Shown: piece by piece, positions 1 through 5,256 of the stretch | Layout of the letters: the number at the start of each line of letters is the position of its first letter | Numbering within the stretch: position 1 is the stretch's first letter | Source: a virus | Lineage: Duplodnaviria; Heunggongvirae; Uroviricota; Caudoviricetes | DNA length: 5,343 nt | Virus record (IMG/VR): IMGVR_UViG_3300023543_000090 | Reading direction: 5' to 3' (one strand) | The notes under the pieces: generated by a model | The model's input: only the letters and a program-made list of their open reading frames with translations | What the model was told of the DNA's origin: nothing | The model's database searches: none | Made by a program: the position numbers and the translations under genes

Positions 1-480
1 AGTACGCGCCCCACGCTGACGGTTTCTAACCTGTACGGTATGGTCACCGGGATGGTGGAAGATCTGCAGAGTCTGGTCGGCGGAACGGTGGTCAGGCGTA
101 AGGTTTACGCCCGTTTTCTGGATGCGGTGAATTTCGTCAACGGAAACAGTGATGCCGATCCGGAGCAGGAGGTGATCAGCCGCTGGCGCGTCGAGCAGTG
201 CAGCGAACTGAGCGCGGTCAGTGCCTCCTTTGTGTTGTCCACGCCGACGGAAACGGATGGTGCTGTTTTTCCGGGGCGCATCATGCTGGCCAACACCTGC
301 ACCTGGACCTATCGCGGTGATGAGTGCGGTTATAGCGGTCCGGCGGTCGCGGATGAATATGACCAGCCGACGTCCGATATCACGAAGGATAAATGCAGCA
401 AATGCCTGAGTGGCTGTAAGTTCCGCAATAACGTCGGCAACTTTGGCGGCTTCCTTTCCATTAACAAACTTTCGCAGTAA
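1..480 (+). CDS. L: Tail tip assembly protein L (gpL family), 5'-truncated by the window edge; C-terminal ~160 aa present
   Basis: Frame 1 is open from position 1 (STRPTLTVSNLYGMVTGM...) to TAA at 478..480. The translation ends ...NVGNFGGFLSINKLSQ, which I recognise as the C-terminus of lambda gpL. Six Cys residues lie in the C-terminal part (codons at 199..201, 298..300, 325..327, 394..396, 403..405, 415..417). It sits directly upstream of K with a 4-nt gap. Confidence 0.9.
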   Translation, partial: STRPTLTVSNLYGMVTGMVEDLQSLVGGTVVRRKVYARFLDAVNFVNGNSDADPEQEVISRWRVEQCSELSAVSASFVLSTPTETDGAVFPGRIMLANTCTWTYRGDECGYSGPAVADEYDQPTSDITKDKCSKCLSGCKFRNNVGNFGGFLSINKLSQ

Positions 481-484
481 TCCC

Positions 485-1228
485 ATGACAGAGACAGAAT
501 CAGCGATTCTGGCGCACGCCCGGCGATGTGCGCCAGCGGAGTCGTGCGGCTTCGTGGTGAGAACACCGGAGGGGGAAAGATATTTTCCCTGCGTGAATAT
601 CTCCGGTGAGCCGGAGGCGTATTTCCGGATGGCTCCGGAGGACTGGCTGCGGGCAGAAATGCAGGGTGAGATTGTGGCGCTGGTCCACAGTCATCCCGGT
701 GGTCTGCCCTGGCTGAGTGAGGCCGACCGGCGGCTGCAGGTGCAGAGTGATTTGCCGTGGTGGCTGGTCTGCCGGGGGGCGATTCATAAGTTCCGCTGTG
801 TGCCGCATCTCACCGGGCGGCGCTTTGAGCACGGGGTGACGGACTGTTACACGCTGTTCCGGGACGCTTACCATCTGGCGGGGATTGAGATGCCGGACTT
901 TTATCGTGAGGATGACTGGTGGCGTAACGGCCAGAATCTCTATCTTGATAATCTGGAGGCCACAGGGCTGTATCAGGTGCCGTTGTCAGCGGCGCAGCCG
1001 GGCGATGTGCTGCTGTGCTGCTTTGGTTCATCGGTGCCGAATCATGCCGCCATTTACTGTGGTGACGGCGAGCTGCTGCACCATATTCCTGAACAACTGA
1101 GCAAACGAGAGAGGTACACCGACAAATGGCAGCGACGCACACACTCCCTCTGGCGTCACCGGGCATGGCACGCATCTGCCTTTACGGGGATTTACAACGA
1201 TTTGGCCGCCGCATCGACCTTCGTGTGA
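485..1228 (+). CDS. K: Tail tip assembly protein K: N-terminal JAB/MPN (JAMM-type) domain plus C-terminal NlpC/P60-type cysteine peptidase domain. The start is ambiguous: 485 (MTETES..., 247 aa) or 629 (MAPEDW..., 199 aa, the classical lambda annotation)
   Basis: ORF in frame 2 ends at TGA 1226..1228. A JAMM-like motif HSHPGGLPWLSEAD (H-x-H-x7-S-x2-D) is encoded at 686..727. NlpC/P60-like residues are present: Cys in GVTDCYTLF (codon 845..847), His in PNHAAIY (1043..1045), and HH at 1079..1084. ATG 485 lies 4 nt after the L stop with no clear SD, suggesting translational coupling. ATG 629 has GGAGG at 613..617. Confidence 0.85.
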   Translation: MTETESAILAHARRCAPAESCGFVVRTPEGERYFPCVNISGEPEAYFRMAPEDWLRAEMQGEIVALVHSHPGGLPWLSEADRRLQVQSDLPWWLVCRGAIHKFRCVPHLTGRRFEHGVTDCYTLFRDAYHLAGIEMPDFYREDDWWRNGQNLYLDNLEATGLYQVPLSAAQPGDVLLCCFGSSVPNHAAIYCGDGELLHHIPEQLSKRERYTDKWQRRTHSLWRHRAWHASAFTGIYNDLAAASTFV

Positions 1229-1797
1229 AAACGGGGGCTGAAGCCATCCGCGCACTGGCCACACAGCTCCCGGCGTTTCGTCAGAAACTGAGCGACGGCT
1301 GGTATCAGGTACGGATTGCCGGGCGGGATGTCAGCACGTCCGGATTAACGGCGCAGTTACATGAGGCTCTGCCTGATGGCGCTGTGATTCATATTGTTCC
1401 CAGAGTCGCCGGGGCCAAGCCCGGAGGTGTATTCCAGATTGTCCTGGGAGCAGCCGCCATTGCCGGATCATTCTTTACCGCCGGAGCCACCCTTGCAGCA
1501 TGGGGAGCAGCCATTGGGGCCGGTGGTATGACCGGCATCCTGTTTTCTCTCGGTGCCAGTATGGTGCTCGGTGGTGTGGCGCAGATGCTGGCACCGAAAG
1601 CCCGGACGCCCACAGCGACCAGCACGGATAACGGTAAGCAGAACACCTATTTCTCCTCACTGGATAACATGGTTGCCCAGGGCAATGTTCTGCCCGTTCT
1701 GTACGGTGAAATGCGCGTGGGGTCACGTGTGGCATCTCAGGAAATCAGTACAGCTGATGAAGGTGATGGTGGTGAAATCGTGGTGATTGGTCGCTGA
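1126..1797 (+). CDS. I: Tail tip assembly protein I (gpI family; ubiquitin-like N-terminal region, Gly/Ala-rich hydrophobic C-terminal segment)
   Basis: 223-aa ORF in frame 1, ATG 1126 to TGA 1795..1797, beginning MAATHTLPLASPGMARICLYGDLQRFGRR..., which matches lambda gpI from memory. GAGG at 1111..1114 is a possible SD. It overlaps the 3' end of K by 103 nt in a different frame, as in lambda. Confidence 0.85.
   Translation: MAATHTLPLASPGMARICLYGDLQRFGRRIDLRVKTGAEAIRALATQLPAFRQKLSDGWYQVRIAGRDVSTSGLTAQLHEALPDGAVIHIVPRVAGAKPGGVFQIVLGAAAIAGSFFTAGATLAAWGAAIGAGGMTGILFSLGASMVLGGVAQMLAPKARTPTATSTDNGKQNTYFSSLDNMVAQGNVLPVLYGEMRVGSRVASQEISTADEGDGGEIVVIGR

Positions 1798-1854: not shown

Positions 1855-5256
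<3,402 letters not shown>

What the first reader, a model, noticed from the sequence alone, without database searches (positions are those of the whole stretch)
845..1084. K carries an intact NlpC/P60-type catalytic Cys-His-His arrangement next to an apparently intact JAMM motif
A Cys in GVTDCYTLF (845..847), a His in NHAAIY (1043..1045) and a downstream HH (1079..1084) follow the order and spacing typical of NlpC/P60 papain-like peptidases. Together with the intact HxH-x7-S-x2-D motif, this suggests both predicted hydrolase modules of a tail assembly protein are potentially active. Why a tail-tip assembly factor needs two hydrolase domains (possibly processing the ubiquitin-like gpI, or cutting peptidoglycan) is still an interesting question.
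Basis: partly seen in the sequence, partly recalled or inferred. Interest (0 to 1): 0.4.

Follow-up and report, generated by a model that had tools for sequence, protein, structure and literature searches.

The report
Lambda tail protein K, two proteases
The gene is an ordinary copy of phage lambda's tail-assembly gene K, and its two intact protease centres (a zinc de-ubiquitinase-type one and a cysteine cell-wall-peptidase-type one) are real but have been in the literature and the databases for about twenty years.

Summary
Window 485..1228 encodes a 247-aa protein 97% identical to full-length lambda gpK, in the usual L-K-I-J tail-tip order. Pfam finds Prok-JAB (aa 4-98) and NlpC/P60 (aa 111-224), both above their curated cut-offs. 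C121 (845..847), H187 (1043..1045) and H199 (1079..1081) align with the Cys-His-His triad of E. coli Spr/MepS. E19, H68, H70, S78 and D81 align with the JAMM motif of Pyrococcus JAMM1. In 95 homologues at 30-58% identity only 11 columns are invariant, and 7 of them are these residues.

One correction: only the first His of the "HH" pair (H199) is the triad residue. H200 varies.

None of this is new. The JAB + NlpC/P60 architecture of K, and the idea that it processes the ubiquitin-like gpI, were published in 2003-2006. A 2025 conference report says the Davidson lab has shown that gpK cuts the ubiquitin-like domain off gpI during tip assembly. The substrate of the NlpC/P60 half is still unknown. 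It could be cell wall, as for the syntenic RcGTA peptidase g14, or a phage protein such as gpI or gpH.

Verdict: a true, already known feature of low interest.

The parts
1..480 (+). 3' part of gene L (tail tip hub protein, Fe-S cluster Cys motif). The ORF runs off the 5' end of the window.
   Evidence: Pfam Phage_tail_L 1.3e-67. Synteny with lambda L.
485..1228 (+). Gene K, 247 aa, full-length tail tip assembly protein K (JAB + NlpC/P60). The ATG lies 4 nt after the L stop codon.
   Evidence: It is 97% identical to the intact 247-aa K ORF of lambda h434 imm21.
494..778 (+). Prok-JAB (JAMM/MPN+) metalloprotease domain, aa 4-98.
   Evidence: Pfam PF14464, 3.5e-14. Profile hits to 2KKS, 2KCQ, PfJAMM1 5LD9/5LDA and AfJAMM 1R5X. 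Foldseek top hit 5LD9.
539..541 (+). E19, the JAMM general-base glutamate (ESCGF).
   Evidence: Invariant in A1 and A2. Aligned to the Glu of PfJAMM1.
686..727 (+). JAMM motif H68-S-H70-x7-S78-x2-D81 (HSHPGGLPWLSEAD): the Zn ligands plus the Ser.
   Evidence: H68, H70 and D81 are invariant and S78 is S/T in more than 90% of sequences.
815..1156 (+). NlpC/P60 (MEROPS C40) papain-like cysteine peptidase domain, aa 111-224.
   Evidence: Pfam PF00877, 1.1e-12. Profile hits to Spr/MepS, LytE and CwlO. Foldseek hits to Acd33800, MepS and LytE.
845..847 (+). C121, the nucleophile Cys (D120-C121), at the N-terminus of predicted helix 121-131.
   Evidence: Invariant in A2. Aligned to the Spr catalytic Cys. 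DSSP of the model.
1043..1045 (+). H187, the catalytic His (N-H-A-A-I-Y).
   Evidence: Invariant in A2. Aligned to chain residue H84 of Spr (H119).
1079..1081 (+). H199, the third triad residue, 12 residues after H187. The neighbouring H200 (1082..1084) is not invariant and is not the triad residue.
   Evidence: Aligned to chain residue H96 of Spr (H131).
1126..1797 (+). Gene I (223 aa from ATG 1126; an alternative start is ATG 1165). It overlaps the 3' end of K by 103 nt (or 64 nt) in the -1 frame. It is the presumed substrate of the K JAB domain.
   Evidence: Pfam Lambda_tail_I 2.6e-28. Alignment with 8 divergent I proteins.
1165..1428 (+). Ubiquitin-like beta-grasp domain of gpI (aa 14-97) ending in K-P-G-G (aa 98-101, nt 1417..1428). 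This is the predicted JAB cleavage junction.
   Evidence: The PF06805 match covers aa 14-97. P-x3-G-[AS]-K-x-G-G followed by a hydrophobic residue is conserved in lambda, T1, HK544, Burkholderia, Rhizobium and Moraxella phages and two IMG/VR phages.
1429..1581 (+). Gly/Ala-rich hydrophobic segment of gpI (aa 102-152) that the Ubl domain precedes.
   Evidence: Kyte-Doolittle peaks at about aa 108-116 and 139-147. In lambda virions only aa 134/135-223 are resolved (PMC10721106; PMC12617516).
1858..5256 (+). Gene J (central tail fibre, 1132 aa), the scaffold on which I, L and K act.
   Evidence: Pfam J domains. 89% identical to lambda J.

Best explanation
This is an orthologue of phage lambda tail tip assembly protein gpK, from a lambda-like coliphage or prophage. 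It is a cytoplasmic two-domain enzyme. A JAMM/JAB zinc metalloprotease domain (aa 4-98) is joined by a flexible linker to an NlpC/P60 cysteine peptidase domain (aa 111-224). Both have complete, strongly conserved catalytic centres.

Inferred, and reported by others: the JAB domain acts like a de-ubiquitinase on the product of the next gene, I. It cuts after the Gly-Gly that ends gpI's N-terminal ubiquitin-like domain. This releases the hydrophobic C-terminal part, which becomes the plug of the tail-tip lumen. The cut happens once gpI has docked on the J/L tip complex, so it serves as an assembly checkpoint.

Inferred from conservation only: the NlpC/P60 domain is also an active hydrolase, and its substrate is not established. 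I lean slightly towards a gamma-D-Glu-mDAP-type cell-wall peptidase inherited from the syntenic tail-lumen peptidase of GTA-like tails. A second processing role on gpI or gpH comes close behind.
For: Identity: 97% to intact lambda K, L-K-I-J synteny, and 93-95% nucleotide identity to lambda-like phages.

Domains: Pfam Prok-JAB and NLPC_P60 both score above their gathering thresholds.

Catalytic positions: these align to PfJAMM1 and to Spr/MepS. The AF2 model's (mean pLDDT 75) best PDB matches include PfJAMM1, Rpn11, MepS, LytE and Acd33800.

Purifying selection: 7 of the 11 invariant columns among 95 homologues at 30-58% identity are the catalytic residues (P = 2.5e-10). Of 108 representative-cluster sequences of roughly full length, 97 keep both sites, and most exceptions are chimeric fragments.

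Substrate link: gpI has the Ubl family domain. A conserved ...G-[AS]-K-x-G-G | hydrophobic junction is present in 9 I proteins from very different phages.

Literature: Iyer et al. 2006 predicted JAB cleavage at this Gly (PMC1779556). Virion structures resolve only gpI 134/135-223. A conference report states that the Davidson lab showed gpK cleaves the Ubl domain of gpI after gpI engages the tip complex (PMC12908700).

For the NlpC/P60 half, its nearest sequence and structure relatives are peptidoglycan DL-endopeptidases. The best NCBIfam match for that domain is the phage cell-wall peptidase family TIGR02219, well below its cut-off. The syntenic RcGTA g14 degrades peptidoglycan and is required for tail formation (PMC7296036).
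Against: The gpK-gpI cleavage evidence is a second-hand talk summary, not a paper.

The exact scissile bond in gpI is not known; the G-A at aa 96-97 is an alternative to the G-G at 100-101.

gpK was not found in lambda virions by mass spectrometry or cryo-EM. This argues against a role in cell-wall cutting at entry. The negative is weak, because trimeric gpI itself gave only one peptide.

The AF2 model is of moderate confidence, and I could not inspect coordinates to measure active-site geometry.
Confidence: 0.85

Rival explanations
1. The NlpC/P60 domain is a second processing protease that acts on phage proteins in the assembling tip. One candidate substrate is gpI, at a second site or together with JAB. 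Another is the tape measure protein gpH, whose cleavage to gpH* plus gpHC in a Gly-rich region has no known protease.
For: The domain is fused to a protease with a phage-protein substrate and acts in the cytoplasm at the initiator stage. gpK is absent from virion MS and maps. Iyer et al. suggested that NlpC/P60 may also process the Ubl protein. PMC12617516 states that how gpH is cleaved is unknown. The catalytic triad is invariant.
Against: All of its closest characterised relatives cut peptidoglycan stem peptides. NlpC/P60-only K homologues exist in GTA-type tails that have no Ubl-gpI, so the domain's ancestral role does not depend on the Ubl. gpH cleavage is reported to occur late, after tube assembly, when K is not known to be present.
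Confidence: 0.35
2. One or both hydrolase domains are a counter-defence. They would strip host ubiquitin-like tags, such as those added by the Bil system, from the central tail fibre J.
For: Hör et al. speculate exactly this for DUB domains in siphophage tail assembly proteins, because Bil conjugates its Ubl to the central tail fibre (bioRxiv 10.1101/2023.09.04.556158). K acts on the J-containing tip complex.
Against: K is essential for lambda tail assembly in hosts without Bil (stated in PMC12617516). A cognate phage-encoded Ubl with a conserved GG junction lies immediately downstream in every divergent locus where an I gene was identified next to K, which suffices to explain the JAB domain. 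No test exists.
Confidence: 0.08
3. The catalytic-looking residues are relics, and K works only as a non-enzymatic chaperone or scaffold.
For: gpK is classed as an assembly factor not seen in the virion. A few homologues have lost catalytic residues, for example P0133 with E19K and C121G.
Against: The catalytic residues are the most conserved positions of the family across 30-58% identity (P = 2.5e-10). Cleavage of gpI by gpK is reported.
Confidence: 0.03

Closest known systems
Bacteriophage lambda gpK (tail tip assembly protein K; TAPK of Iyer, Burroughs & Aravind 2006)
   Same: 97% amino-acid identity over all 247 residues. It has the same L-K-I-J gene order, the same K/I overlap, and the same JAB + NlpC/P60 architecture with the same catalytic residues.
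   Different: Eight substitutions, none at catalytic positions. The RefSeq lambda record annotates only 199 aa because it lacks one G upstream. The window has the intact 247-aa ORF.
JAMM/MPN+ Ubl-processing metalloproteases (Pyrococcus JAMM1 5LD9/5LDA, AfJAMM 1R5X, Rpn11, CSN5, haloarchaeal desampylase)
   Same: The E-x(n)-H-S-H-x7-S-x2-D motif is in register, the MPN fold is predicted, and a Ubl with a C-terminal Gly-Gly is encoded next door.
   Different: About 23% identity. The domain is fused to a second peptidase. The presumed substrate is a linear Ubl-protein fusion (gpI), not an isopeptide conjugate. Activity was not measured here.
NlpC/P60 DL-endopeptidases (E. coli Spr/MepS 2K1G, B. 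subtilis LytE/CwlO, C. difficile Acd33800)
   Same: D-C ... G-D ... H-x11-H in register, and a papain-like fold with the Cys at a helix N-terminus.
   Different: 16-21% identity. There is no signal peptide or cell-wall-binding domain. C-Y-T replaces the usual C-S-G. There is a roughly 15-residue longer insert between the Cys and the His. The protein is cytoplasmic and its substrate is unknown.
RcGTA g14 (Rcc01697) and roseophage R4C tail peptidase (NCBIfam TIGR02219)
   Same: An NlpC/P60 gene sits between the hub (L-like) and central fibre (J-like) genes and is required for tail formation. The K NlpC domain gives its best NCBIfam hit to this family.
   Different: Those proteins are about 150 aa and have NlpC/P60 only, with no JAB and no separate Ubl-gpI. 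They are thought to sit in the tail lumen and degrade peptidoglycan. The K match to TIGR02219 is far below that family's cut-off (26.7 against 81.9 bits).

Membership tests
JAMM/MPN+ metalloprotease (Pfam PF14464 Prok-JAB) | Profile score above the curated Pfam threshold | tested here: met
   53.1 bits against a cut-off of 25, E = 3.5e-14, aa 4-98 covering profile positions 4-103 of 114.
JAMM/MPN+ metalloprotease (Pfam PF14464 Prok-JAB) | Complete E-x(n)-H-[ST]-H-x7-S-x2-D motif | tested here: met
   E19, H68, S69, H70, S78 and D81 are present. They are in register with PfJAMM1 and 2KKS. E19, H68, H70 and D81 are invariant in 95 homologues.
JAMM/MPN+ metalloprotease (Pfam PF14464 Prok-JAB) | MPN fold | tested here: met
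   The N-terminal half of the AF2 model has pLDDT about 88-93. The Foldseek top hits are 5LD9/5LDA (E = 2.6e-5, TM 0.64 on the target), followed by Rpn11 and CSN5. This rests on a predicted structure, not a solved one.
JAMM/MPN+ metalloprotease (Pfam PF14464 Prok-JAB) | Zn2+ binding and cleavage after the C-terminal Gly of a Ubl | not testable with these tools
   Only indirect support: a conserved Ubl-GG junction in the adjacent gpI and a talk summary reporting cleavage (PMC12908700).
NlpC/P60 (Pfam PF00877, MEROPS C40) | Profile score above the curated Pfam threshold | tested here: met
   48.3 bits against a cut-off of 23, E = 1.1e-12, aa 111-224 covering profile positions 1-105 of 105.
NlpC/P60 (Pfam PF00877, MEROPS C40) | Cys-His-polar(His) triad at the family's catalytic columns | tested here: met
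   C121, H187 and H199 align to chain residues C33, H84 and H96 of Spr 2K1G, which correspond to C68, H119 and H131. All three are invariant in A2. The H-to-H spacing is 12, as in Spr.
NlpC/P60 (Pfam PF00877, MEROPS C40) | Papain-like alpha+beta fold with the nucleophile at a helix N-terminus | tested here: met
   DSSP of the model gives helix 121-131 and strands 187-193 and 196-201. Foldseek hits Acd33800, MepS, LytE and the T. thermophilus NlpC/P60. This rests on a predicted structure.
NlpC/P60 (Pfam PF00877, MEROPS C40) | Hydrolytic activity (gamma-D-Glu-mDAP endopeptidase or another amidase) | not testable with these tools
   No assay was possible. The substrate is unknown.
Lambda gpK orthologue group (tail tip assembly protein K) | High identity to lambda K and position between L and I/J | tested here: met
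   97% identity over 247 aa. Pfam finds L, I and J flanking it. Annotated the same way in PhiR30_1 and lambda.
NCBIfam TIGR02219 phage cell-wall peptidase (RcGTA g14 type) | Score above the family cut-off | tested here: not met
   26.7 bits against a cut-off of 81.9. K is related to this family but is not a member of it.

The most novel reading that the evidence does not exclude
The NlpC/P60 half of gpK is not a cell-wall enzyme but a second, papain-like processing protease of the tail tip. It could be the long-unidentified enzyme that cleaves the tape measure protein gpH into gpH* and gpHC. It could instead be a DUB-like enzyme that removes host Bil-type Ubl tags from J. Either way, K would be a dual-protease maturation and counter-defence factor.
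Probability: 0.12. Interest if true: 0.55.

Novelty: already known. Interest (0 to 1): 0.15.

Why it matters
It matters little as a discovery. The two-peptidase architecture of lambda K, its intact JAMM motif and its predicted action on the ubiquitin-like gpI were published in 2003-2006. Pfam and NCBI annotation ('C40 family peptidase') encode them, and experimental confirmation of the JAB-gpI step has been reported at a 2025 meeting.

What stays open is the substrate of the NlpC/P60 centre. That question touches two real gaps in lambda biology. Nobody knows how the tail channel crosses the peptidoglycan, since no muralytic activity is known in the virion. Nobody knows what cleaves gpH.

The window adds nothing specific to those questions beyond confirming that the residues are conserved.

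Tried and rejected
1. A single-sequence search of PDB sequences gave only marginal NlpC/P60 hits (E 0.13-0.3), and a profile of close relatives did no better. A profile of 95 diverse homologues was needed.

2. The search for related loci with the diverse alignment failed because no conserved 7-10-column stretch was found. With the close alignment it returned only relatives at 97% identity or more. Divergent loci were obtained instead with single divergent queries and tblastn against the phage collection.

3. I considered programmed -1 frameshifting in the 103-nt K/I overlap, prompted by K-I fusion proteins in the database and by phrog_28576. I rejected it. The fusions P0014, P0035, P0071, P0092 and P0118 are clusters of only one or two sequences, each with a different junction, and some carry further frame errors. 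I saw no X XXY YYZ slippery heptamer in the overlap when reading the sequence.

4. The reading that K is a catalytically dead scaffold was rejected on conservation.

5. Literature searches combining gpK with NlpC, or 'assembly protein K' with NlpC, found nothing. Anantharaman & Aravind 2003 and Casjens & Hendrix 2015 are not held in the library. What I say about them is therefore from memory or from citation in PMC1779556.

6. Other long ORFs, such as the 562-aa antisense ORF at 2647..4335 inside J, are mechanical by-products and were ignored.

Full report
What the window is. The 5343-base window is the tail-tip module of a lambda-like coliphage or prophage. It holds the 3' part of L (1..480), K (485..1228), I (1126..1797) and J (1858..5256). 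At the nucleotide level it is about 95% identical over its whole length to Escherichia phages Turner, PhiR30_1 and 2H10, and about 93% to Lambda_4C10-type lambda phages. The K product (247 aa) is 97% identical to the intact K ORF of lambda h434 imm21.

Checking the observation. The coordinates are exact.
- C121 is TGT at 845..847 in GVTDCYTLF.
- H187 is CAT at 1043..1045 in NHAAIY.
- H199 and H200 are CAC CAT at 1079..1084.
- The HxH-x7-S-x2-D motif is HSHPGGLPWLSEAD, aa 68-81, nt 686..727.
- The JAMM family also requires an upstream glutamate. It is present as E19 (539..541, in PAESCGF).

Pfam assigns Prok-JAB to aa 4-98 (3.5e-14, 53.1 bits, cut-off 25) and NLPC_P60 to aa 111-224 (1.1e-12, 48.3 bits, cut-off 23).

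Are the residues at the catalytic positions? I collected close relatives and, from the 50%-clustered library, distant ones: 2,749 hits at E <= 0.001.

In 20 relatives at 68-97% identity, E19, H68, S69, H70, S78, D81, C121, H187 and H199 are invariant, while H200 is Q in two of them. In 95 homologues at 30-58% identity only 11 columns are invariant: E19, G22, N38, H68, H70, D81, D120, C121, D174, H187 and H199. S78 and H200 exceed 90%. Seven of the 11 invariant columns fall on eight pre-specified catalytic positions, which has a hypergeometric probability of 2.5e-10. Among 108 representative-cluster sequences of roughly full length, 97 keep both sites. Most of the rest are chimeric or frameshifted fragments.

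A profile built from the 95 sequences hits two groups of solved structures.
- JAB domain: 2KKS (3e-14), 2KCQ, Pyrococcus JAMM1 5LDA/5LD9 (about 2e-11) and AfJAMM.
- NlpC/P60 domain: Spr/MepS 2K1G/8XUD (2.3e-7), LytE and CwlO.

In the printed alignments the K family's 'rEaCG', 'HSH' and 'S..D' lie on the same motif of PfJAMM1. 'lDCytlv' lies on Spr 'IDCSGFV', and 'nHaaiylgdgkilHh' lies on Spr 'RHVGIYIGNNQFVHA'. In chain numbering these Spr residues are C33, H84 and H96. With a constant offset of 35 they are the published C68/H119/H131 triad (numbering from my memory of Aramini et al. 2008).

An AlphaFold2 model (mean pLDDT 75, linker 104-111 disordered) puts C121 at the N-terminus of helix 121-131, and H187 and H199 in adjacent strands. 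Its best PDB matches are PfJAMM1, Acd33800, Rpn11, MepS, CSN5 and LytE.

The one correction is that H199 alone, not the HH pair, is the third triad residue.

What is already known. The JAMM paper of 2003 lists lambda tail assembly protein K as a JAMM protein of unknown function (PMC300881). Iyer, Burroughs and Aravind 2006 describe 'TAPK' as JAB + NlpC/P60, citing Anantharaman & Aravind 2003. They describe 'TAPI' as an N-terminal ThiS/MoaD-like ubiquitin fold with a conserved C-terminal glycine. They propose that JAB releases the Ubl domain by cutting at that glycine and that the NlpC/P60 domain might also take part (PMC1779556).

RefSeq already names lambda K a 'C40 family peptidase'. Cryo-EM and mass-spectrometry studies of lambda find gpI, but only residues 134/135-223, as a trimeric plug in the tip lumen. 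They do not find gpK (PMC10721106; PMC12617516).

[quoted passage not shown] It adds that this occurs only after gpI has engaged other tip proteins, which enforces stepwise assembly (PMC12908700). Hör et al. separately speculate that such DUB domains counter the Bil defence system, which tags the central tail fibre with a Ubl.

Independent support from sequence for the JAB-gpI link. tblastn finds a K homologue in 1,760 phage records, and in 1,722 of them the match covers at least 80% of K, meaning both domains. I took loci from the following phages and aligned their K and I products:
- T1
- HK544
- a Burkholderia phage
- a Rhizobium phage
- a Moraxella phage
- a Vibrio phage
- two uncultured IMG/VR phages

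All K proteins keep E...H[ST]H...S..D and DC...H...H. The one exception is the second of two tandem K copies in one IMG/VR phage, which has GC in place of DC and HQ in place of HH.

All nine I proteins have the Ubl domain followed by P-x3-G-[AS]-(K)-x-[GAM]-G, then immediately a hydrophobic, Gly/Ala-rich stretch. In the window this reads ...VPRVAGAKPGG|VFQIVLGAAA..., with GG at aa 100-101 (KPGG is nt 1417..1428). Hydrophobicity peaks fall at about aa 108-116 and 139-147. This anatomy is that of a Ubl-GG-cargo precursor made for a JAMM protease. It is also consistent with the virion containing only the C-terminal part of gpI.

How it most likely works.
- Shown here: both catalytic centres are complete and are the most conserved features of the family.
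- Reported by others, and supported here by the conserved junction: the JAB domain removes the Ubl domain of gpI. The Ubl probably keeps the hydrophobic segment soluble until gpI is docked in the J/L complex.
- Inferred only: the NlpC/P60 domain is catalytically active.

The substrate of the NlpC/P60 domain is open. In favour of peptidoglycan, its nearest relatives are DL-endopeptidases. The syntenic NlpC/P60-only protein g14 of the Rhodobacter gene transfer agent degrades peptidoglycan, is needed for tail formation, and may sit in the tail lumen (PMC7296036). No muralytic activity is known in the lambda virion (PMC12617516). Against peptidoglycan, gpK has not been seen in virions. That negative is weak, because trimeric gpI gave a single peptide in the same experiment.

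The alternative is a second processing cut in gpI, or the unexplained cleavage of gpH to gpH*. I put roughly 45% on a cell-wall substrate, 35% on a phage-protein substrate, and the rest on other possibilities.

Verdict. It restates an architecture and a hypothesis published about twenty years ago, and the experimental answer for one of the two domains is already being reported. Novelty: already known. Interest: low (0.15). The residual open point, what the NlpC/P60 centre cuts, cannot be advanced from this sequence alone.

Noticed in passing
window 485..631; L001 (NC_001416) 733..890; L094 (OM418627) 301..450: The RefSeq lambda record annotates K as 199 aa starting at the Met that corresponds to M49 here. 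Compared with the window and with a resequenced lambda derivative, it lacks one G about 10 nt upstream of that ATG (GGAGGC-TATTTCC). This throws the first 48 codons, including the JAMM glutamate E19, out of frame. With the G the ORF is 247 aa and begins 4-5 nt after the L stop codon. The '199-aa gpK' quoted in several papers therefore truncates the JAB domain. OM418627 has the intact ORF but still carries the short annotation. From memory, a '+G at 14266' correction to the lambda sequence is known.
   Followed up: yes
window 1126..1228: K and I overlap by 103 nt, with I in the -1 frame relative to K. In T1, the Burkholderia and Rhizobium phages and two IMG/VR phages the overlap is only 4-8 nt. 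Lambda-type K has an extra C-terminal tail (aa 228-247) and lambda-type I has 13 extra N-terminal residues. Other I proteins start at the position of M14 (ATG 1165). One GenBank record (PhiR30_1) starts I at GTG 1225, which would delete the first strand of the Ubl domain.
   Followed up: partly
database proteins P0014, P0035, P0071, P0092, P0118; phrog_28576: K-I fusion ORFs occur in public data and even form a PHROG family. The five I inspected each have a different junction within or near the overlap, are clusters of only one or two sequences, and some contain further frame errors. They look like indel artefacts or pseudogenes rather than programmed frameshifting.
   Followed up: yes
L085 (IMGVR_UViG_3300005605_000059) 2902..3705 and 3702..4553: An uncultured phage carries two tandem K paralogues, both JAB + NlpC/P60, upstream of a single I gene. 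The second copy has G-C instead of D-C before the nucleophile and H-Q instead of H-H. It also has a large insert in the NlpC/P60 domain.
   Followed up: no
window 4810..5256 (J aa ~985-1132): J is 89% identical to lambda J overall. Nearly all the divergence is in the last ~150 residues, the C-terminal receptor-binding domain, which is well under half identical by eye and contains indels. This suggests a receptor specificity different from lambda's LamB.
   Followed up: partly
representative protein P0133 (245 aa, 51% identical to K): This is a full-length K homologue with both centres hit: E19K in the JAMM motif and C121G in the NlpC/P60 triad. The other catalytic residues are intact. It may come from a decaying prophage. 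I did not examine its genomic context.
   Followed up: no
window 298..460 (L C-terminal region): A cysteine cluster in gpL (CTWTYRGDECGY ... DKCSKCLSGCKF) corresponds to the 4Fe-4S site described for lambda gpL. The literature says its function is still unknown (PMC10721106).
   Followed up: no
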